Shown here in pieces: positions 6,043-60,545 of a stretch of 64,000 nt of DNA; position 1 is the stretch's first letter, and each line of letters starts with the position of its first letter. The notes beneath the pieces were generated by a model. The model was not told the origin of the DNA and ran no database searches. It saw only the letters and a list, made by a program, of their open reading frames with translations. The position numbers and the translations under genes were made by a program. Source of the stretch: Bdellovibrionales bacterium (lineage in GTDB: Bacteria; Bdellovibrionota; Bdellovibrionia; Bdellovibrionales; UBA1609); contig JBFWVI010000003.1 of assembly GCA_050246815.1 (NCBI GenBank), forward strand, positions 32,001 to 96,000, read 5' to 3'.

Positions 6043-6329
6043 GGCTGTGCATTCTCCTTAAGCGCAGAGGGGACAGGATCCCAGCCGAAAGGGCCCAAGG
6101 GATGGCAACGGCAAATCCGTTTGATCGCCAAAGAGGTCGCTTTCAAGGGCGGGTGCGTCTGATAGGCTTCCACCGCATACTGTGAACAGGTCGGTGAAAA
6201 ACGGCAGGTGCCGCCCAAAAAGCCTCTCAAAAACGATTGATAAAAATAAATTAGCGAAAGCGCCAAGGTGCGGATGATTGCCGCGAATATCTTATGCGAC
6301 TTTTGCCAAGCTCTTAGACAGAACTGCAT
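6039..6329 (-). CDS. yidD: Membrane protein insertion efficiency factor YidD (start uncertain)
   Basis: CRFSPTCSQY, RICRCHP, GWDPVP. Confidence 0.9.
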   Translation of the reverse strand: MQFCLRAWQKSHKIFAAIIRTLALSLIYFYQSFLRGFLGGTCRFSPTCSQYAVEAYQTHPPLKATSLAIKRICRCHPLGPFGWDPVPSALKENAQP

Positions 6330-6663
6330 CGATTTCCTTATGACTGAGTTGTCGGTAAAATTCATTCTGTTGGCGACGAAACACGAGGCTTATATCCACG
6401 GTTTCGTCGTCGCCGATTTGCGCCGCCCAACGACGCAAATGCTCACGGCACCAACGCTTCAGCCGATTGCGTGTGACGGCGGTGCCTACATATCGCGGAA
6501 GTGTGCATCCAAGGCGGATTTTTTTTTGCTGATTCGGCTTTGAATACACCACCAACCATGGGGCCACGATCACACGTCGACCTTTTTGGCGAAGTTGCAG
6601 AAATGATTGAGGTGATTTGAGACTAACCAGCGCCGCCACGGGGGTGGGCTGCTTATTTTCCAC
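6292..6663 (-). CDS. rnpA: Ribonuclease P protein component
   Basis: RLG....[15 protein letters not shown] motif; follows rpmH. Confidence 0.92.
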
Positions 6664-6802
6664 TCACACTCACCGTCAGGCGCTTACGGCCTTTTGAACG
6701 GCGACGTGCCAAAACTTCTCGGCCATCTTTTGTGGCCATGCGAGTGCGAAAACCGTGTGTGCTTTTGCGACGTTTACGGCTGACTTGCAGTGTGCGTTTC
6801 AT
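6653..6802 (-). CDS. rpmH: 50S ribosomal protein L34 (49 aa; below ORF-track cutoff)
   Basis: Manual translation [49 protein letters not shown]. Confidence 0.97.
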
Positions 6803-6954
6803 GCGGTAACTCCCGGTTACGACTGTAGAATACTACGTCAATATATGAAAACCTTTGAGCCGCCGAATAAACCACAATCGGGGCTTCTGGGTCAAGGCGT
6901 CGTGTCGGGCGATTCATTGAAAAATTTTTAGGTTCGTGATAACTCAAGCGCCAC

Positions 6955-6963
6955 TTATCCACA
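6955..6963 (+). promoter_or_regulatory. Perfect DnaA box upstream of dnaA (likely autoregulation)
   Basis: TTATCCACA in the rpmH-dnaA intergenic region. Confidence 0.8.
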
Positions 6964-7019
6964 TTTTAAGCTAAGTATTGCAAACAGAATAGGCAGCTTA
7001 CTTTTTGAGGGGGCATCGC

Positions 7020-8426
7020 ATGAATCATGAGGACTTCTGGGCGCAGGTTAAACACAACCTCAAGTCCAAGAACCTCAACAATAAACCTCTGCAAATGTGG
7101 TTCGAACCGACTTGCTTGGTGGATGTTGAAACCCGTCAAAGTGGTGCTTGCTTTCGTTTAGGCGTGCCAACGGAACTACATAAGTATTGGATTTCACAGA
7201 ATCTTTTAGATCGTATCTGCTCAGAGATTTCGGCTCTCTATGCTCAAGCGTTTCAGGTGGAAGTGGTGGTCACGGGCGCCAATGAACCTGCGGCTAATGA
7301 GGTCGGTCAGTTAGAACTCGAGGCCTCTGTAACCTCCCAAACACAGGCTTCTGAATCCCGTGCCTGGCCGCAAACGACGGGGAATACCTATCAACGTGAT
7401 GGAATTAACAGCGATTACACCTTTTCCACCTTTGTGGTTGGGCGAAATAACGAATTTGCCCATGCGGCCTGCTTTAATGTGGCTGAAAACCCTGGGGGCA
7501 AGGTGAATAACCCCCTATTCATTTGTGGGCCGACCGGCATGGGTAAAACCCACTTGCTGACCGCTGTGGGCAACCATATTCGCCAAAAATTCCCCGAAAC
7601 CCGTATCAACTATGTCAGTGCGGAACGTTTTTTAAATGAATGTATTTCCAGTATCCGCCGTGGCGAAATGGATAAATTTCGTAACCGCTACCGGGATAAC
7701 TGCGACATTCTGCTGATGGATGACATTCAAATCTTAGGGCGTGGAGAAGCCGTTCAAGAGGAGTTCTTTCATACGCTGAACAACTTCTTCGAAAAAAGTA
7801 AACAGGTGGTCGTGGCCTCTGACCGGATGCCAAAAGACATTAAGGGTCTAGAAGATCGTATTCGCACCCGTCTTGAATGGGGTCTTATCGCGGATATTCA
7901 AATGCCAGACATCGAAACCCGTGTGGCCATTTTGAAATACAAGGCCGAACGACGAAGTATTCCCTTGGTGAACGAAGTTGTGGGCTATATCGCCCGCATT
8001 TCCAAACGATCAATTCGTGAACTCGAGGGCAATCTGAACAAGCTGAAAATGTACTCAGAGCTGCAAGGTGTTCCACTTTCTTTGGATCTCGCGAAGCGGG
8101 TATTGGCCCATCATGACGACGTGGCCACCATCACGATCGAAGAGATTCAGCGGTTAGCATCAGAACACTACCAAGTTCGCCTGCCTGACCTAAAGTCGAA
8201 AACACGCACCAAGCCTCTTGTCACGGCTCGTCAAGTGGCCATGTACTTAGTTAAAAAACACCTCGATAAGCCACTGGTTGAGATCGGTCGTGCCTTTGGA
8301 GGCAAAGACCACACCACGGTCATCAACGCTTTGCGTAGGATTGAGAATCAACTGCATAAAGACCCTGAAATTAAGAAAGATGTCGAAGAGTTAGAGGGGC
8401 GTATCCACAACATCACAGGGGTGTGA
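7020..8426 (+). CDS. dnaA: Chromosomal replication initiator DnaA
   Basis: NPLFICGPTGMGKTHL, DDIQ, EEFFHTLN, RELEG, FGGKDHTTV; ATG at 7020 after GAGGGG. Confidence 0.98.
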   Translation: MNHEDFWAQVKHNLKSKNLNNKPLQMWFEPTCLVDVETRQSGACFRLGVPTELHKYWISQNLLDRICSEISALYAQAFQVEVVVTGANEPAANEVGQLELEASVTSQTQASESRAWPQTTGNTYQRDGINSDYTFSTFVVGRNNEFAHAACFNVAENPGGKVNNPLFICGPTGMGKTHLLTAVGNHIRQKFPETRINYVSAERFLNECISSIRRGEMDKFRNRYRDNCDILLMDDIQILGRGEAVQEEFFHTLNNFFEKSKQVVVASDRMPKDIKGLEDRIRTRLEWGLIADIQMPDIETRVAILKYKAERRSIPLVNEVVGYIARISKRSIRELEGNLNKLKMYSELQGVPLSLDLAKRVLAHHDDVATITIEEIQRLASEHYQVRLPDLKSKTRTKPLVTARQVAMYLVKKHLDKPLVEIGRAFGGKDHTTVINALRRIENQLHKDPEIKKDVEELEGRIHNITGV

Positions 8427-8625
8427 ATAGAGCATGTGGAAAACCCTGTGGGCAAATGTGGGGAAGAAAATGTGGATGCGCCTGTGTGTGCATAATTCAC
8501 TAGAATTAACGGATCTTTTCCGCTACTTAATCCACTGGGAAAATGCAGTTAAAACAAAAGGTTAAATAGATAAGGCCGATATACCGTCGCCTACTACGAC
8601 TACTAGTTTTATATTAAATAAAGAG
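8401..8625. other. Replication origin oriC (dnaA-dnaN intergenic)
   Basis: Degenerate DnaA boxes GTATCCACA 8401, TGTGAATAG 8422, TGTGGAAAA 8435, TGTGGGCAA 8447, TGTGGGGAA 8457, TGTGGATGC 8471, TGTGCATAA 8487, TAATCCACT 8528; DnaA-trio-like CTACTACGACTACTAG 8591-8606 then AT-rich run. Confidence 0.85.
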
Positions 8626-8663
8626 ATAGAGAATATAGGGAACTTATTGGATGAGGGGATCAA

Positions 8664-9794
8664 ATGAAAATCAAAATCGATAAGCAAGATTTTGTAGACC
8701 TGATTGGGCGCGCACAAAACATCGTTGAAAAAAGAAACACCATGCCTGTCTTGGTGAATGTTTTGTTGGATGCGCAAGGAGATTTTTTGCAAGTCTTCGC
8801 CACAGATCTTGAAGTGAGCCTGACCGATCAAATGCCCGCCGAAATTATTCAACCGGGTAAAGTGGTGGTCAACGCGCGCAGCCTTTTTGATATCATCAAA
8901 GAACTGCCCGAAGGCCAAGTTCAGTTAGAAAAGAAAGAAAACAACTGGTTAAGAATCACTCAGAATAAAGCCTTGTTTAATATCGTCGGCATCAGCCCGG
9001 ATGAGTATCCGGTGTTCCCCACATTCTCGACGAAAGATTTTGTTGTTGTTGAAACAGAGATGCTTCGCGAGATGATTGAAAAAACGATCTACAGTGTTTC
9101 GACGGACGAGACCCGATACCATCTGAACGGGGTCTTTTTTGAAAAACAGATGGACAAAGATGGCGTCAGTTATCGCATGGTGGCTACCGATGGCCATCGC
9201 TTGAGTCTGATCGACCGCAAAACCAAAGGGGATATGTCCGCATCTATCGGGAAAAGCCCGACTCAAGGTGTGATTATTCCGCGCAAAGGTTTGCATGAAC
9301 TTCGAAAGCTTCTGGATAACGCTGGGGAAACCGTGGATATGGCGATCGAAGGGTCGCAGTTGATCGTTCGTTCAAGCAGTGCCGTGCTGATGGTTCGTCT
9401 GATTGAGGGGAAATATCCCAATTATCAACAGCTTATTCCACAAAACCTAAGAGAAAATTTGTTGGTCAATCGCGCCATGCTTTTGAGTTCGCTCAAACGG
9501 GTGTCGCTTTTGTCGAATGCGAAGTCTCGCGGTGTGACTTTGAATTTGTCCAAAGGGAAAATGGAAATCACCTCGAACAATCCAGAGCTGGGCGACGCCA
9601 AAGAAGAAATCGAGGTGGATTACACCGGTCGAGATATGAAAATAGGTTTTAATGCGCGCTATATTTTGGAAGTGCTCACCAGCATGAACGAGGATTTGGT
9701 ACAAATTGAATTTAACGATCAATTGTCGCCGGGTCTCGTACGTCCGCACAAAGACAAGTCGTACACTTGCGTCGTTATGCCGATGCGGATTTAA
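8664..9794 (+). CDS. dnaN: DNA polymerase III beta sliding clamp
   Basis: ATDLE, VATDGHRL, RLIEGKYP, GFNARY, VVMPMR. Confidence 0.98.
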   Translation: MKIKIDKQDFVDLIGRAQNIVEKRNTMPVLVNVLLDAQGDFLQVFATDLEVSLTDQMPAEIIQPGKVVVNARSLFDIIKELPEGQVQLEKKENNWLRITQNKALFNIVGISPDEYPVFPTFSTKDFVVVETEMLREMIEKTIYSVSTDETRYHLNGVFFEKQMDKDGVSYRMVATDGHRLSLIDRKTKGDMSASIGKSPTQGVIIPRKGLHELRKLLDNAGETVDMAIEGSQLIVRSSSAVLMVRLIEGKYPNYQQLIPQNLRENLLVNRAMLLSSLKRVSLLSNAKSRGVTLNLSKGKMEITSNNPELGDAKEEIEVDYTGRDMKIGFNARYILEVLTSMNEDLVQIEFNDQLSPGLVRPHKDKSYTCVVMPMRI

Positions 9795-9806
9795 GTTTTA
9801 GTTAAA

Positions 9807-10946
9807 ATGCATTTCAGTCGGCTGCGGCTCAAGAATTTTAGAAACTATCAAGATCTTGAGTTGCAGTTCAATCCGGGAGTCAACATCTTCGTTGGCCAAA
9901 ACGGGCAAGGGAAAACAAACTTAGTTGAGGCTCTTCATCTTTTGGTGAAAGGCGATTCGTTTCGTGCCGGGTTGCCGGAAGTTTGGCTTCGTAAGGTGGA
10001 AGAAGGACACGCTGACTTTGCCACTTTACAGGCCTCCGTACATAAAGCTGGTCTCAGTAATGAATTGGAAATGCGTTACCATGGTGGCAAAAGACAATTT
10101 TTTGTCGACCAAAAAAAAGTGATCAGCAATATTTTGCCAGAACGCTATCCGGCCGTGCTTTTTAGTCCAGAAAGTTTGGCTGCAATCAAAGAAGGTCCTG
10201 ATCAACGCCGTCAATTGATCGATGACGCGCTGATGTCGCATGGCGAAGGAGCCCGGGTGACGGATTTCAAAAGAGCCTTGCGCTCAAGAAATCGCCTGCT
10301 GCGCGACTTTAAAGCCGGCATTTACCAAGAGACCCAAATCCTTGAACTGCTTGAGGCCTTCGATCAAGTCTACCTTCCCTTGGCAGCAAAGCTTGCCAGC
10401 GAACGAATACGACGTTTAAACGAGCTTGAGCCCTTGATCCGCGACGCTGTTCGTTCGATTGCGCCGGAAGATCTTGGGGATATCTCTGTGGATTACGAAA
10501 TTTCAGACCGAAGCGCGCGCGAGTATGATTTGCATGAGATTTTACAGACCATGCGTAATAGATTGAAATTACTAAGAAAATCAGAACTTTCGTATGGGGC
10601 CTCTTTGGTGGGCCCACACAAGCACGAGGTGCACTTCCTAAGTGCTGGAAATGACGCGCGTTATTTCTGTTCGCAAGGGCAACAAAGAGCCCTCATTTTA
10701 GGTTTCAAGATGGCGCAAATCATGTATCATTACTCGACTTTTCAGGTTCATCCTTTGTTACTTTTGGATGATGTTTTGTCCGAGTTGGATCCGCATAAAG
10801 GAGCCAACTTACTCAAATTTTTGGAAGGTATCCGTTCGCAGATTTTACTGACGACGACGGATATTTCTTTCCCGTTTGAGTTCGGCAACAAAGGGATGAG
10901 CGTGTATCGGATGAAAAGCGGCGCGGTTGAAGAGCTGCGCCCTTAA
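9807..10946 (+). CDS. recF: DNA replication/repair protein RecF
   Basis: NFRNY, GQNGQGKTN, GPH, SQGQQR, LLLDDVLSELD. Confidence 0.96.
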   Translation: MHFSRLRLKNFRNYQDLELQFNPGVNIFVGQNGQGKTNLVEALHLLVKGDSFRAGLPEVWLRKVEEGHADFATLQASVHKAGLSNELEMRYHGGKRQFFVDQKKVISNILPERYPAVLFSPESLAAIKEGPDQRRQLIDDALMSHGEGARVTDFKRALRSRNRLLRDFKAGIYQETQILELLEAFDQVYLPLAAKLASERIRRLNELEPLIRDAVRSIAPEDLGDISVDYEISDRSAREYDLHEILQTMRNRLKLLRKSELSYGASLVGPHKHEVHFLSAGNDARYFCSQGQQRALILGFKMAQIMYHYSTFQVHPLLLLDDVLSELDPHKGANLLKFLEGIRSQILLTTTDISFPFEFGNKGMSVYRMKSGAVEELRP

Positions 10947-13403
<2,457 letters not shown>

Positions 13404-13415
13404 AGGGATAACCGC

Positions 13416-15869
13416 ATGGATCGTCTTCCTGAACAATTGGGTGTTTCTGACGTCGACATCAATAAAGAAATGCGCGAAGCGTACCTGCAATATTCGATGA
13501 GCGTCATTGTAGGCCGCGCGCTACCAGATGTGCGCGATGGATTGAAGCCGGTTCATCGACGCTGCCTGTTTGCGATGAATGAACTCAGCAACACGCACGA
13601 TAAGCCTTACAAAAAATCCGCCCGTATCGTCGGTGATGTGATCGGTAAGTATCACCCCCATGGCGATATGTCGGTTTACGACACCATCGTGCGTATGGCC
13701 CAAGATTTTTCGTTGCGCTACCCGCTAGTGGACGGCCAAGGTAACTTTGGCTCCGTCGACGGCGATTCTCCGGCAGCGGCCCGTTATACGGAAATTCGCA
13801 TGACCAAGCTGACGGAAGAGTTGCTGGCCGATATCGAAAAAGACACGGTCCCCTTCGGCTGGAACTACGATGATTCGCTTTTGATCCCGCAAATTTTGCC
13901 GGCGAAGTTTCCAAATCTTTTAGTGAACGGAAGTTCGGGTATTGCGGTGGGTATGGCCACCAATATTCCCCCGCATAATTTGGGTGAAGTAATTGATGGC
14001 TGTATCGCGCTGATCAAAAATCCTGAAACCACTTTGGATGAGATCATTCGCTTGATTCCGGGGCCGGACTTTCCCACGGCCGGCGTGATTGCGGGTGCTA
14101 ACGGAATTTTGTCGGCTTATAAAACCGGCCGCGGCGTCATCAACCTAAAGGCAGTCGCCGAAATTGAAATGAAAAAGGACCGCGAAGAAATCATCGTCAC
14201 CGAAATTCCTTACCAGGTGAACAAAGCCAAGCTGATCGAGTCGATGGCAGACTTGGTCAAAGACAAAAAGATCGAAGGCATCGCCGATATTCGTGACGAA
14301 TCCAGTCGCGAAGGCATGCGTATCGTGATTCAGTTAAAACGTGGCGAGAACGCCCAAGTTGTATTGAATCGCCTTTATAAGTTCACCCAGATGCAAGTGA
14401 GCTTTGGCATCATCATGTTGGCCTTGGATGCCCGAAACCAGCCGAAAGTATTTAATCTTAAAGAGGTTTTGGAAGCTTTTATCACCCACCGCAAAGACGT
14501 CGTCACCCGACGCTGCATCTTTGATTTGCGCAAAGCCGAGGCCCGAGCACACATTTTGGAAGGCTTGAAAAAAGCTTTGGACCAGATCGATGCCGTGATC
14601 GCGACCATTCGCGCCGCCAAAGAAGCAGATGTCGCCAAAGAGAACTTGATGAGCAAGTTCAGCTTCAGCGACAAACAGGCGGTCGCGATTTTAGAAATGC
14701 GCTTGCAGCGCTTAACCGGCCTGGAGCGACAGAAAATTTTAGACGAACTGGCCGAAGTCAGCAAAACCATCGCTTGGCTGAAAAAAGTTTTGGGCGATGT
14801 GGGTGAGATCTACAAGCTCATCATGGGCGAGCTAGAAGAAATCAAAAAGAATTTTTCAGATCCCCGCCGCACGAAAATTGAAAGAAGCGGCGAAGAGCTG
14901 CAAGACGAAGATTTGATTGCCCGCGAAGAGATGGTCGTGTCGATGACCCAGGCAGGCTATATCAAACGCATCCCTGTAGATGAGTACCGCGTGCAAAAAC
15001 GCGGCGGCAAAGGCTTAAAAGGGGCCGAGACGCGCGAAGAAGATTTTGTGAACCGAGTTTTTGTTGCGGACACGCTGACGATGATTTTGGCGTTCTCAGA
15101 TCGTGGAAAAATGTATTGGTTGAAAGTGCACCAAATTCCTTTGGGTTCGCGCACCTCAAAAGGCAAAGCGATCAATAACATTGTCAACCTATCGCCCGGT
15201 GAAACGATTCGAACAATTTTGCCCATCAGTCAGTTTACGGCCGAGCATTTTGTGGTCATGCTCACGCAAAAAGGCACAATTAAGAAAACTTCGCTTGAAT
15301 CGTTCTCGAAACCACGCCCGTCTGGGCTTATCGCTTTAACCATCGAGCTGGATGACAATCTGAGCGATGCTAAAATTTCCACCGGCAACGACGACATCTT
15401 TATTGTCACCAAAGACGGGATGTCGATCCGTTTTGACGAGAACGAAGTGCGTGCTATGGGGCGCACCGCGCGCGGCGTACGGGGCATCTCGCTGGCCAAG
15501 GACGATATCGTCATTGGTATGGAAGTGATTGCCAAAGACAGCAAAGAAACTGTCTTGATGGTGACTAAAAATGGATATGGTAAGCGCACCTCGATGGAAG
15601 AATACCGACTGCAAGGCCGCGGTGGCGTCGGCATCATCACACAAAAAACCACTGACAAAGTCGGCGATGTGGTCAGTGCTCGCCTGGTCACGGATCAAGA
15701 GCAAATTTTAATCATGACCAACAATGGTCAATCCATTCGAACAAGCTGCAAAGAAATATCGGTTTTGGGCCGTAACACTCAAGGTGTACGTTTGATGAAT
15801 TTAAAAGATGACGAAACCGTCACCAGTGTAGCGGCATTGGCAGAGGAAGACGACAGCAAGGCGGAATGA
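13416..15869 (+). CDS. gyrA: DNA gyrase subunit A
   Basis: [23 protein letters not shown] catalytic Tyr, GyrA-box QKRGGKG. Confidence 0.98.
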
Positions 15870-56196: not shown

Positions 56197-57702
56197 ATGC
56201 GTCTCAAAATGGGAGAAGTTTTTAGCGAAAATCTGGCGGGTTTGGCCAACTTCGCGAACGCTAAGTTCACGGCGATCATCAGCGATTTGCATCTTTGCGA
56301 AGAGGAACCCGTCCATCATGATCACCCACTGTGGAAGAAGTATAAAAGTCGACAGTTTTTTTTCGACCAGGAGTTTGAGGAGTTTCTTAAACACGTGCGC
56401 GAGCGAGCCAAAGGTGAGCCCGTTGAGCTGATTTTAAACGGCGATATCTTTGACTTCGATAGTGTGACCACTTTACCCGAGTTGCCACCCTATCGTTTGA
56501 GCTGGCTTGAGCGTCGACGCGGCCTGCATCCACAAAAAGAGAAATCGGAATTTAAAATTCAAAGAATTTTGCAACATCACGAACAATGGGTGCGGGCCTT
56601 GAGCCAATTTGTGCAAGAGGGCAACCGGGTGATCTTCATCATCGGAAACCATGATTTAGAGCTGCATTTTCACAGGGTTCAAGAGGCGATTGTTGAAGCC
56701 CTGAACTTGACCGAAGACGCCAAACAACGAGTCCGTTTCAATGAGTGGTTTTACATCTCGAATGGCGACACTCTGATCGAACATGGTAATCAGTACGATC
56801 CCTATTGTATGGCCCAAGACCCCGTGAACCCCTATGTCCTGCGTTTTAATCGTATTGAAGTCAGAGTGCCGTTTGGCAATTTGGCGACCCGCTATTTGAT
56901 TAACGGCATGGGCTTTTTTAATCCCCACGTCGACACAAATTATTTAATGAGCGCGAAAGAGTATGTGCGATTTTTCTTTCGTTACATGATCCGCGCCCAA
57001 CCGCTCTTAATGGTGGATTGGTTTTGGGGTTCGACTGTGACTCTGGTGCAGTCTTTTGTGGACCGCTTGCGGCCGTCGCTTCGTGATCCCTTGACCATCG
57101 AAGATCGCGTGCAGTGGATCGCGGCCAAGGCCAATGCCACGCCGCGAATGGTGCGTGAGCTGCAGGAGCTTTTTGTTGCGCCGGCCTCGAGTTACCCGAC
57201 AATCATTGCCAAGGAGCTTTGGTTGGATCGGGCTTTTTTAGTGGTGGCGTTCTTACTGTTGATGATGCAGCTGATGCTTTTTTTGGCGACTATGGAGAAT
57301 AAATTCATGTGGTGGGTGATTTTGCCCATTGTACCGCTACTTTTTTTCGTGCCCTTTTTTATTTTTTACTCACGCACAGTGGCTTCGTTGGTGGTGGAAT
57401 CCAAAGAGCCCAAAGAAGAGATTTTGGCGATGGCCGGTCAGATCACCAAAACCAATCGTATTGTTTATGGCCATACCCACATCATGCGACATGAAGTCAT
57501 TGGTCCTATCGAGCACCTGAACAGCGGCACATGGTCCCCGGCATTTGCGGATGTGGAGTGCGAGAAGCCGGTGGGCCTTAAAACGTTTGTTTGGCTTGAG
57601 CCGACCAATGACGGAGGGCGGCACGCGCTGCTGTTAGCCTTCCGACACAGCCGTAGCTTTGCCGCCTTTGCCGCGCCTAAACGGCACACAGTTGGCGCGT
57701 GA
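56197..57702 (+). CDS. Calcineurin-like metallophosphoesterase with membrane hairpin
   Basis: SDLH, GDIFD, GNHD, EHGN, GHTH, NSGTW; two TM helices near the C-terminus. Confidence 0.85.
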   Translation: MRLKMGEVFSENLAGLANFANAKFTAIISDLHLCEEEPVHHDHPLWKKYKSRQFFFDQEFEEFLKHVRERAKGEPVELILNGDIFDFDSVTTLPELPPYRLSWLERRRGLHPQKEKSEFKIQRILQHHEQWVRALSQFVQEGNRVIFIIGNHDLELHFHRVQEAIVEALNLTEDAKQRVRFNEWFYISNGDTLIEHGNQYDPYCMAQDPVNPYVLRFNRIEVRVPFGNLATRYLINGMGFFNPHVDTNYLMSAKEYVRFFFRYMIRAQPLLMVDWFWGSTVTLVQSFVDRLRPSLRDPLTIEDRVQWIAAKANATPRMVRELQELFVAPASSYPTIIAKELWLDRAFLVVAFLLLMMQLMLFLATMENKFMWWVILPIVPLLFFVPFFIFYSRTVASLVVESKEPKEEILAMAGQITKTNRIVYGHTHIMRHEVIGPIEHLNSGTWSPAFADVECEKPVGLKTFVWLEPTNDGGRHALLLAFRHSRSFAAFAAPKRHTVGA

Positions 57703-57737
57703 AGCGGCGCACCGTTTTGTGCAAATCTCAGATCCCC

Positions 57738-57774
57738 TATAATTAATCTGGACAAGCATGGGTGGTATAATTAA
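57738..57774 (+). promoter_or_regulatory. Tandem sigma70 -10 elements upstream of histone gene
   Basis: TATAATTAA at 57738 and 57766; second is extended TGnTATAAT; GGAGG RBS at 57799. Confidence 0.55.
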
Positions 57775-57807
57775 ACCTCGGTACTAGGGACTTCTTGTGG
57801 AGGACAA

Positions 57808-58002
57808 ATGTCTGACGTTCTGGTTGTAACTAGCAAAGTTAAAAAGTTTATTAAAGAAAAAGGTGGCTGCAACACTTCTGCCGAGACCGTTGACGTTTTG
57901 AGCAAGGCTGTTGAAGCTCTTTGCCAAAAGGGCGTTGAAAGCGCCAAGGCCGATGGTCGCAAGACTGTCATGGCACGCGATATCGTCATCGACCATCTGT
58001 AG
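57808..58002 (+). CDS. Bacterial histone (histone-fold singlet, Bd0055/HBb-like)
   Basis: 64 aa MSDVLVVTSKVKKFIKEK...AKADGRKTVMARDI; RKTV..RD histone-fold signature. Confidence 0.9.
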   Translation: MSDVLVVTSKVKKFIKEKGGCNTSAETVDVLSKAVEALCQKGVESAKADGRKTVMARDIVIDHL

Positions 58003-58032
58003 TCGTCGAAGCGGTCTTAAATTTTGAATTTT

Positions 58033-58061
58033 AAATGGGATCGCTCGATCCCATTTTTTTT
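58033..58061 (+). terminator. Intrinsic terminator after histone gene
   Basis: AAATGGGATCG-CT-CGATCCCATTT + T tract. Confidence 0.8.
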
Positions 58062-58069
58062 AAAGCGGC

Positions 58070-60545
<2,476 letters not shown>

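What the first reader, a model, noticed from the sequence alone, without database searches (positions are those of the whole stretch)
57808..58002. Bacterial histone near the origin
The 64-aa protein has the histone-fold C-terminal RKTV..RD signature and, from memory, closely resembles Bdellovibrio bacteriovorus Bd0055 (HBb), reported as an abundant, essential histone that binds DNA without forming canonical nucleosomes. It is monocistronic with its own promoter and terminator. Histones are rare in bacteria; this is a known family, not a new one. It has two Cys (GGCNTS, ALCQK).
Basis: partly seen in the sequence, partly recalled or inferred. Interest (0 to 1): 0.7.

Follow-up and report, generated by a model that had tools for sequence, protein, structure and literature searches.

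The report
Known Bdellovibrio-type bacterial histone gene
This 64-codon gene encodes a protein 86% identical to Bd0055/HBb, the already crystallised histone of the predatory bacterium Bdellovibrio, so it likely packages DNA in the same way and is an expected, ordinary member of a known family.

Summary
The ORF at 57808-58002 (+) is real and encodes 64 residues. It matches the solved structures of Bdellovibrio bacteriovorus Bd0055/HBb end to end (8FVX, 8CMP; E about 3e-30; 55 of 64 identical). The papers' own text ties those codes to Bd0055/HBb.

The RKTV motif, the R51-D58 clamp, D49, the S9-K10 motif and all ten DNA-contact residues reported for HBb are present. A predicted model shows the short-alpha2, one-turn-alpha3 histone fold, and HBb chains are its top five fold matches.

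A full-length orthologue occurs in 36 of 41 related genomes. It lies 42-51 kb from dnaA in 5 of 5 complete relatives and 50.8 kb in the window.

Caveats:
- A terminator is present, but the promoter is only a candidate and monocistronic transcription is not shown.
- C39 is shared with HBb, and C21 is the family's majority residue (107 of 121), not a peculiarity.
- Abundance and essentiality are inferred from HD100 only.

This scan already reported the same gene in 8 other genomes. Verdict: already known, low interest.

The parts
57808..58002 (+). Coding sequence of a 64-aa HBb/Bd0055-type ('bacterial dimer', alpha3-truncated) histone, stop codon included
   Evidence: ORF list and translation. 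Matches 8fvx_A at E 2.9e-30 and 8cmp_A at E 3.2e-30 over residues 1-64. Pfam PF00808 scores 22.6 bits against a cut-off of 21.4.
57799..57803 (+). Shine-Dalgarno sequence GGAGG, 4 nt before the ATG
   Evidence: Read from the sequence. A GGAGG-like motif stands at the same place in nearly all of the 60 upstream stretches printed (by eye, not counted).
57763..57771 (+). Candidate extended -10 promoter element TGGTATAAT (inferred, not shown to be used)
   Evidence: It is the only TGNTATAAT in the 64-kb window on either strand, where 0.68 are expected per window. The sigma-70 two-hexamer scan found no promoter because the -35 is weak. The motif is not conserved in sequence in relatives.
57738..57743 (+). 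Second perfect TATAAT hexamer in the 105-nt intergenic gap (alternative -10 candidate)
   Evidence: Read from the sequence. Not reported by the consensus scan.
58033..58064 (+). Intrinsic-terminator-like hairpin (10-bp stem, 4-nt loop) followed by a T-run, 31 nt after the stop codon and just before the convergent ligA
   Evidence: Terminator scan. MFE is -13.5 kcal/mol. A hairpin plus T-run is found within 110 nt downstream in 91 of 105 relatives' loci, against 459 of 1050 (44%) mononucleotide shuffles with the same loose detector.

Best explanation
The gene encodes an orthologue of the Bdellovibrio bacteriovorus histone Bd0055/HBb, which likely forms a homodimer that binds DNA without sequence preference and bends it locally as a major nucleoid protein.

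Shown here:
- an intact 64-codon gene;
- 86% identity to the crystallised protein;
- every published DNA-contact, clamp and dimer-core residue present (one dimer-core residue as a conservative I35V change);
- a predicted alpha3-truncated histone fold;
- conservation across the order;
- a conserved place 42-51 kb from dnaA.

Inferred from the HD100 protein, not tested here:
- Two chains would pair head to tail through alpha2 (L31, V35, L38) with V11 and I59.
- The paired L1 (G-G-C-N-T-S) and L2 (G-R-K-T-V) loops and the alpha1 lysines (K10, K12, K16) would contact only the phosphate backbone.
- R51-D58 with D49 would hold loop L2 in shape.
- Because alpha3 is one turn long and the alpha2/L2 region has no histidine, dimers would not stack into tetramers or hypernucleosomes.
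- At low occupancy each dimer would bend DNA. At high occupancy end-on coating of straight DNA is possible.
For: Identity: phmmer against PDB gives 8fvx_A E 2.9e-30 and 8cmp_A E 3.2e-30, both covering residues 1-64. The printed alignment shows 9 differences (positions 2, 3, 14, 20, 21, 28, 35, 37, 40). PDB codes are tied to Bd0055/HBb by passages of PMC10627809 and PMC11317129.

Residues: the ten residues with most DNA contacts in Hu et al.'s MD (N22, R57, S9, T53, T8, S24, K10, K12, K52, K16) are all present. Nine are invariant and S24 is 120 of 121 in the 121-sequence alignment. R51, D58 and K52-T53-V54 are 121 of 121, and D49 is 117 of 121. Dimer-core residues V11, L31, L38 and I59 are kept, with I35 changed to V.

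Fold: AlphaFold2 with 121 sequences gives helices 9-19 and 24-48 and one turn at 56-58 (mean pLDDT 74.1). The Foldseek top five are HBb/Bd0055 chains (E 5.5e-6 to 1.9e-5), followed by the FtF histones HTkC and HLp, then H4 and HMfA.

Conservation: a full-length match at 60-100% identity occurs in 36 of 41 genomes, own genome included. The best 80 are almost all labelled Bdellovibrionales, Pseudobdellovibrionaceae, Bdellovibrionaceae or Bdellovibrio.

Position: the gene is 50.8 kb from dnaA in the window and 50.7, 50.7, 50.5, 49.0 and 41.9 kb away on the dnaA strand in 5 of 5 complete genomes checked.

Function in HD100, from passages read: ranked 12th of 2,125 proteins and most abundant in the nucleoid fraction; binds genomic DNA without sequence specificity and bends DNA.
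Against: Nothing here measures DNA binding, oligomeric state, abundance or need for the gene in this organism.
- Codon adaptation gives no independent support for high expression. CAI is 0.708, and 388 of 2784 ORFs are equal or higher. 27% of length-matched 63-codon windows from all ORFs also reach it.
- The monomer model is only moderately confident (pLDDT 74.1, pTM 0.49; TM about 0.6 and rmsd about 5 A to the crystal chains).
- Pfam PF00808 passes its cut-off only narrowly (22.6 against 21.4 bits), and NCBIfam's archaeal histone model is not reached (30 against 50 bits).
- The binding mode is disputed in print. Hocher et al. saw end-on binding that encases straight DNA, and Hu et al. saw bending.
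- The studied protein carries Met21, whereas this one carries Cys21 next to the main contact residue N22.
Confidence: 0.88

Rival explanations
1. Same protein, different mechanism. The dimers would bind DNA end-on through a single L1-L2 interface and pack side by side into a sheath around straight, unbent DNA (a nucleohistone filament), so the protein would stiffen and shield DNA rather than bend it.
For: The crystal structure 8FW7 of Bd0055 with 35-bp DNA shows this arrangement, as described in passages of PMC10627809. The L1-L2 residues used there are all kept in the window's protein. The very high abundance reported for HD100 would allow dense coating.
Against: Hu et al. report two other co-crystal forms, tethered-particle, topology and circularisation assays and MD that all indicate bending, and they question the physiological relevance of filaments. 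A later paper from that group summarises HBb as bending DNA. Nothing in the sequence distinguishes the two modes, and they may both occur at different occupancies.
Confidence: 0.3
2. A histone-fold protein that acts as a specific transcription-factor subunit (NF-Y/CBF-like), as some database names suggest, rather than as a general chromatin protein.
For: The Pfam family hit is 'Histone-like transcription factor (CBF/NF-Y) and archaeal histone'. One source names a relative 'NFYB/HAP3 family transcription factor subunit'.
Against: That name is only the family label. The protein is 86% identical to HBb, for which DNA affinity purification and sequencing showed binding along the whole genome without sequence specificity. 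The protein has only the 64-residue fold and no extra domain.
Confidence: 0.03
3. A chance open reading frame or a decaying gene copy with no function.
For: The ORF is short (64 codons). No RNA data exist for this organism.
Against: 30 positions are invariant and 13 more are at least 90% conserved across the 121 sequences aligned. Length is fixed at 64 aa in 107 of 121. The gene has a strong Shine-Dalgarno and a terminator. An orthologue is present in 36 of 41 genomes of the order.
Confidence: 0.01

Closest known systems
Bd0055 / HBb of Bdellovibrio bacteriovorus HD100 (PDB 8FVX, 8FW7, 8CMP, 9EZZ, 9F0E); 'bacterial dimer' category of the alpha3-truncated histones (Schwab et al. 2024, PMC11390915)
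   Same: Same length (64 aa) and 55 of 64 residues identical. All published DNA-contact residues, the RD clamp, D49, the S9-K10 motif and C39 are the same. The predicted helix layout is the same. Complete Bdellovibrio sp. genomes carry the gene about 50 kb from dnaA, as here. The position in HD100 itself was not checked.
   Different: Nine substitutions. The only one in a functional loop is M21C, beside G20 in place of Q20. C21 is the commoner state in the family, at 107 of 121. The host is an uncultured Bdellovibrionales-type genome in 149 contigs, and no biochemistry exists for this variant.
Face-to-face (FtF) alpha3 histones: HLp of Leptospira perolatii (9QT0) and HTkC of Thermococcus kodakarensis (9F2C)
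   Same: Short alpha2, one-turn alpha3 and the RKT loop. Weak but real sequence matches (E 4.9e-5 and 3.9e-7), and these are the next-best fold matches.
   Different: FtF histones form stable tetramers that wrap about 60 bp. The window's protein is roughly 25 orders of magnitude closer to HBb in E-value. A separate FtF-like gene exists elsewhere in the same genome.
Archaeal nucleosomal histones HMfA/HMfB
   Same: Histone-fold topology, the RD clamp, and the K-T DNA-contact motif in loop L2.
   Different: Only marginal sequence matches (HMfA E 0.16), and the NCBIfam archaeal histone model stays below its cut-off. Alpha2 is shorter and alpha3 is one turn instead of about ten residues. The sprocket arginine and the tetramer histidine are reported missing in the bacterial proteins. 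The only His here is H63. No hypernucleosome is expected.
HU/IHF family nucleoid-associated proteins
   Same: Works alike according to Hu et al. and Schwab et al.: a small, abundant dimer that bends DNA non-specifically and may stiffen it at high density.
   Different: The fold is unrelated and there is no sequence similarity. This is a functional analogy only.

Membership tests
Bacterial dimer histones (HBb/Bd0055 type; alpha3-truncated histone family) | Clusters by sequence with HBb (the category is defined by sequence clustering, per PMC11390915) | tested here: met
   55 of 64 identical to 8fvx_A over the full length, E 2.9e-30. The next family (HTkC, HLp) scores E 3.9e-7 and 4.9e-5.
Bacterial dimer histones (HBb/Bd0055 type; alpha3-truncated histone family) | Histone fold with alpha3 truncated to 3-4 residues and a shortened alpha2 | tested here: met
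   The model has helices at 9-19 and 24-48 and a 3-residue helix at 56-58. The top five Foldseek matches are HBb chains. Model confidence is moderate (pLDDT 74.1).
Bacterial dimer histones (HBb/Bd0055 type; alpha3-truncated histone family) | RKTxxxD motif with the R-D clamp, plus conserved alpha1 lysines and the S-K motif | tested here: met
   R51, K52, T53, V54, R57, D58, S9, K10, K12 and K16 are present and are 121 of 121 in the alignment. D49 is 117 of 121.
Bacterial dimer histones (HBb/Bd0055 type; alpha3-truncated histone family) | Forms dimers only, with no tetramer or hypernucleosome | not tested
   No oligomer prediction was run. The one indirect hint is that H63 is the only histidine. 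The FtF interface residues named were not mapped onto this protein.
Bacterial dimer histones (HBb/Bd0055 type; alpha3-truncated histone family) | Non-specific DNA binding, high abundance, nucleoid localisation | not testable with these tools
   Known for HD100 only. The codon-bias proxy was inconclusive, and no RNA run is listed.
Pfam PF00808 CBFD_NFYB_HMF | Score at or above the gathering cut-off | tested here: met
   22.6 bits against 21.4, E 1.3e-4, residues 11-59. The margin is narrow.
NCBIfam NF043032 archaeal histone / nucleosomal HMf-type histones | Score at or above the curated cut-off; full-length alpha3 | tested here: not met
   30 bits against a cut-off of 50. HMfA scores E 0.16. 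Alpha3 is one turn. The protein is not filed here.
Face-to-face (FtF) histones | Closest similarity to FtF members such as HLp or HTkC | tested here: not met
   HLp E 4.9e-5 and HTkC E 3.9e-7, against HBb E about 3e-30.

The most novel reading that the evidence does not exclude
The family's normal form carries a cysteine (C21) in DNA-binding loop L1, directly beside N22, the residue with the most DNA contacts. The only protein ever studied (HD100, Met21) lacks it. C21 could therefore be a thiol switch that makes DNA coating or bending by this histone respond to oxidative stress during predation, a property the model protein would have hidden.
Probability: 0.04. Interest if true: 0.5.

Novelty: already known. 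Interest (0 to 1): 0.12.

Why it matters
Bacterial histones are a recent and still debated discovery, but this gene adds little to that debate. It is the positional orthologue of the one bacterial-dimer histone that has been crystallised and assayed. Its family, distribution in Bdellovibrionota and abundance are in print (PMC10627809, PMC11317129, PMC11390915).

Two small points may help people working on HBb. Neither term set was found in the main text of the two primary papers, and supplements and figures were not seen.
- The model HD100 protein has the minority residue (Met) at position 21, where 107 of 121 close relatives have Cys.
- The gene keeps a fixed place 42-51 kb from dnaA on the dnaA strand in 5 of 5 complete genomes checked. 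That position would give a gene-dosage advantage during the multi-round replication of these predators (inference).

Tried and rejected
1. Codon adaptation as a proxy for abundance. The reference set was 27 ribosomal-protein and elongation-factor genes verified by NCBIfam (4741 codons). The histone scores CAI 0.708 against a genome median of 0.654 and a reference median of 0.735. However, 388 of 2784 ORFs and 27% of length-matched windows reach that value. Inconclusive, and not used as evidence.

2. Public sequencing runs. No RNA holder is listed: the three rows are DNA-type runs of one study, two of which may be the source of the DNA. Nothing was laid, so expression and transcript ends remain untested.

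3. Sigma-70 two-hexamer scan. It found 0 promoter-like sites in 57400-58400, so the promoter rests only on a TGNTATAAT motif. A single match anywhere in the window is not unusual, since 47 of 100 shuffles have at least one. Only its location is suggestive.

4. Upstream conservation. No shared promoter motif is evident among the 60 upstream stretches printed.

5. Terminator count in relatives. My detector is loose and fires on 44% of shuffles, on 53 of 105 reverse complements and on 43 of 107 upstream stretches. The 91 of 105 figure is therefore about a two-fold enrichment, and the relatives are not independent.

6. Rfam. There are 0 matches at gathering thresholds in the whole window, so no known leader or small RNA lies at the locus.

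7. Cysteine pair as a disulfide or metal site. Rejected as the main reading. Position 21 alternates with Met and Phe, and HLp has Phe aligned there, which fits a hydrophobic packing position. C21 (loop L1) and C39 (middle of alpha2) are far apart along the fold (inference; no coordinates were available to measure).

8. Homodimer prediction was not run.

9. Earlier notes of this scan near this place: none.

Full report
**Observation**

The + strand carries an ORF from the ATG at 57808 to the TAG ending at 58002, encoding 64 residues. No in-frame start codon lies upstream after the previous stop. GGAGG sits at 57799-57803, four bases before the ATG.

**Identity**

- phmmer against all PDB chain sequences returns two near-identical top sequences, 8fvx_A (also 8fw7) at E 2.9e-30 and 8cmp_A (also 9ezz, 9f0e) at E 3.2e-30. 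Both align residues 1-64 of the query.
- The printed alignment shows nine differences, at positions 2, 3, 14, 20, 21, 28, 35, 37 and 40, so 55 of 64 residues are identical.
- I read passages of the two primary papers, not the whole texts. PMC10627809 states that 8FVX is apo Bd0055 and 8FW7 is DNA-bound Bd0055. PMC11317129 states that 8CMP is free HBb and that 9EZZ and 9F0E are HBb-DNA complexes.
- The next PDB matches are much weaker: HTkC 9f2c at E 3.9e-7, HLp 9qt0 at 4.9e-5, HmvA at 4.5e-4 and HMfA at 0.16.
- Pfam PF00808 passes its cut-off narrowly (22.6 against 21.4 bits). NCBIfam's archaeal histone model does not pass (30 against 50 bits).

**Functional residues**

- Hu et al. list N22, R57, S9, T53, T8, S24, K10, K12, K52 and K16 as the residues with most DNA contacts. 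They name R51-D58 as the RD clamp, augmented by D49, and L31, I35, L38, V11 and I59 as the dimer core.
- Hocher et al. stress the RKTV motif, a bacterial S9-K10 motif and the shorter alpha2.
- All of these are present here. The only change is I35V.
- I aligned the query with the 120 best cluster representatives from the large protein collection. T8, S9, K10, K12, K16, N22, T23, R51, K52, T53, V54, R57 and D58 are 121 of 121. S24 is 120 of 121 and D49 is 117 of 121.

**Fold**

AlphaFold2 on that alignment gives helices at 9-19 and 24-48 and a single turn at 56-58 (mean pLDDT 74.1, pTM 0.49). That is the alpha3-truncated layout described by Schwab et al. (passages of PMC11390915).

Foldseek against the PDB puts five HBb/Bd0055 chains first (E 5.5e-6 to 1.9e-5, TM about 0.6). 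HTkC and HLp follow, then eukaryotic H4 and HMfA. The moderate confidence and the rmsd of about 5 A are what one expects when one chain of an obligate dimer is modelled alone (inference).

**Distribution and context**

- A search of 41 genomes (the window's own plus 40 relatives from its genus, family and order) finds some match in 41 of 41.
- 36 of the 41 have a full-length match at 60-100% identity.
- The other five (G005, G006, G019, G020, G036) show only distant or long-frame histone-fold hits.
The best 80 are almost all labelled Bdellovibrionales, Pseudobdellovibrionaceae, Bdellovibrionaceae or Bdellovibrio sp.. The host is therefore a Bdellovibrionales-type bacterium. Its assembly has 149 contigs and 3.40 Mb.
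- Within the window, dnaA (7005-8426), dnaN, recF and gyrB are verified, and GC skew changes sign at about 6-7 kb. The histone gene is 50.8 kb from the dnaA start.
- In 5 of 5 complete genomes checked, the distance is 50.7, 50.7, 50.5, 49.0 and 41.9 kb, on the dnaA strand. 'Near the origin' is fair, and the position is conserved.
- Neighbours are a 501-aa membrane metallophosphoesterase upstream on the same strand (PF00149) and a convergent ligA downstream.
- The phosphoesterase is adjacent in 47 of 95 loci with enough flank. ligA is convergent downstream in 46 of 66.

**Expression signals**

- A terminator-like hairpin (10-bp stem, 4-nt loop, then a T-run) lies at 58033-58056, with an MFE of -13.5 kcal/mol.
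- A loose detector finds a hairpin plus T-run downstream in 91 of 105 relatives. It also fires on 44% of shuffles, so this is only about a two-fold enrichment among non-independent genomes.
- The consensus sigma-70 scan finds no promoter.
- The only TGNTATAAT in the whole window is at 57763-57771, 37 nt before the ATG, and another TATAAT is at 57738-57743. These are candidates only, and they are not conserved in relatives.
- The upstream gene ends 105 nt away on the same strand with no terminator-like site between, and no RNA run is listed. 'Monocistronic with its own promoter' is therefore plausible but not shown.

**The cysteines**

C39 is shared with HBb and is invariant (121 of 121). C21 replaces the Met of HD100 but is the majority state: Cys in 107, Met in 12 and Phe in 2 of 121. 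Because position 21 alternates among hydrophobic residues, the simplest reading is a packing position in loop L1 rather than a redox or metal site (inference). The terms Cys, C39, M21 and disulfide do not occur in the main texts of the two primary papers, apart from a proteomics setting. Figures and supplements were not seen.

**Mechanism**

By homology, the protein likely forms a head-to-tail homodimer that contacts only the DNA backbone through its paired L1-L2 loops and alpha1 lysines. Two in-vitro pictures exist:
- end-on binding that sheathes straight DNA (Hocher et al.);
- bending by about 84 degrees over 36 bp as single dimers (Hu et al.).

Later papers from the second group adopt bending. 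A 2025 preprint says the in vivo function is still unknown. I commit to bending at ordinary occupancy, with coating possible at high density. The sequence cannot decide between them.

High abundance (12th of 2,125 proteins) and probable, not proven, essentiality (0 deletions, 133 and 150 reversions) are HD100 results. My codon-bias proxy for this genome was inconclusive.

**Verdict**

The gene is the positional orthologue of a crystallised, assayed protein in a clade where it is near-universal. This scan has already reported it in 8 other genomes with the same conclusion. It is already known and of low interest.

Noticed in passing
Outside the window: G000 contig C57, locus L003 1042-1611 (+): A second histone-fold gene in the same genome. 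The 189-aa ORF has a Cys/His-rich N-terminal part, a low-complexity linker and a C-terminal HBb-like histone fold (residues 129-185 match 8cmp at E 1.6e-9). The architecture fits the published description of ZZ histones, but no Pfam family, ZZ included, hit at E <= 0.01. Similar long-frame hits occur in many relatives.
   Followed up: partly
Outside the window: G000 contig C41, locus L114 1515-1712 (-): A third histone-fold gene. It is a singlet of about 65 aa, counted from an internal Met of a 106-aa ORF, and also carries G-C-N-T-S. Its nearest solved relative is HLp of Leptospira perolatii (9QT0), a tetrameric face-to-face histone, at E 2e-11, against E 2.5e-4 for HBb. Schwab et al. place Bdellovibrionota FtF histones mainly in class Bacteriovoracia, so three alpha3-histone subtypes in one Bdellovibrionales-type genome may be worth a look.
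   Followed up: partly
window 57868-57870 (codon 21): Cys21 is the majority state among close relatives (107 of 121; Met 12, Phe 2). It is also Cys in most of the 30 orthologues read from relatives' genomes. The crystallised HD100 protein has the minority Met.
   Followed up: yes
window 7005-57808, and complete relatives G027 and G041-G044: The histone gene keeps a nearly fixed distance from dnaA on the same strand: 50.8 kb here, and 50.7, 50.7, 50.5, 49.0 and 41.9 kb in 5 of 5 complete genomes checked. The terms 'origin of replication' and 'synten' were not found in the main text of PMC10627809.
   Followed up: yes
Relatives G005, G019, G020 (1.2-1.5 Mb) and G006, G036: 5 of the 41 genomes of the order lack a 64-aa HBb-type orthologue. 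Three small genomes have only weak singlet hits (E 2e-7 to 7e-5), and two have only a long-frame (ZZ-like) hit. This could reflect loss, replacement or assembly gaps, and was not examined.
   Followed up: no
window 6043-7004: The GC skew changes sign here, just upstream of dnaA-dnaN-recF-gyrB-gyrA at 7005-15869. This is the probable oriC region. DnaA boxes were not searched for.
   Followed up: no
window 58070-60334 (-): The ligA ORF as listed (754 aa) is about 70 residues longer at its N-terminus than the LigA models, whose match starts at residue 70-75. The true start is probably an internal Met, which would also remove its overlap with the gatC start at 60261.
   Followed up: no
window 56197-57702 (+): The upstream neighbour is a 501-aa calcineurin-like metallophosphoesterase (PF00149, E 9.4e-9) with no NCBIfam match. 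It is adjacent to the histone gene in 47 of 95 relatives' loci.
   Followed up: partly
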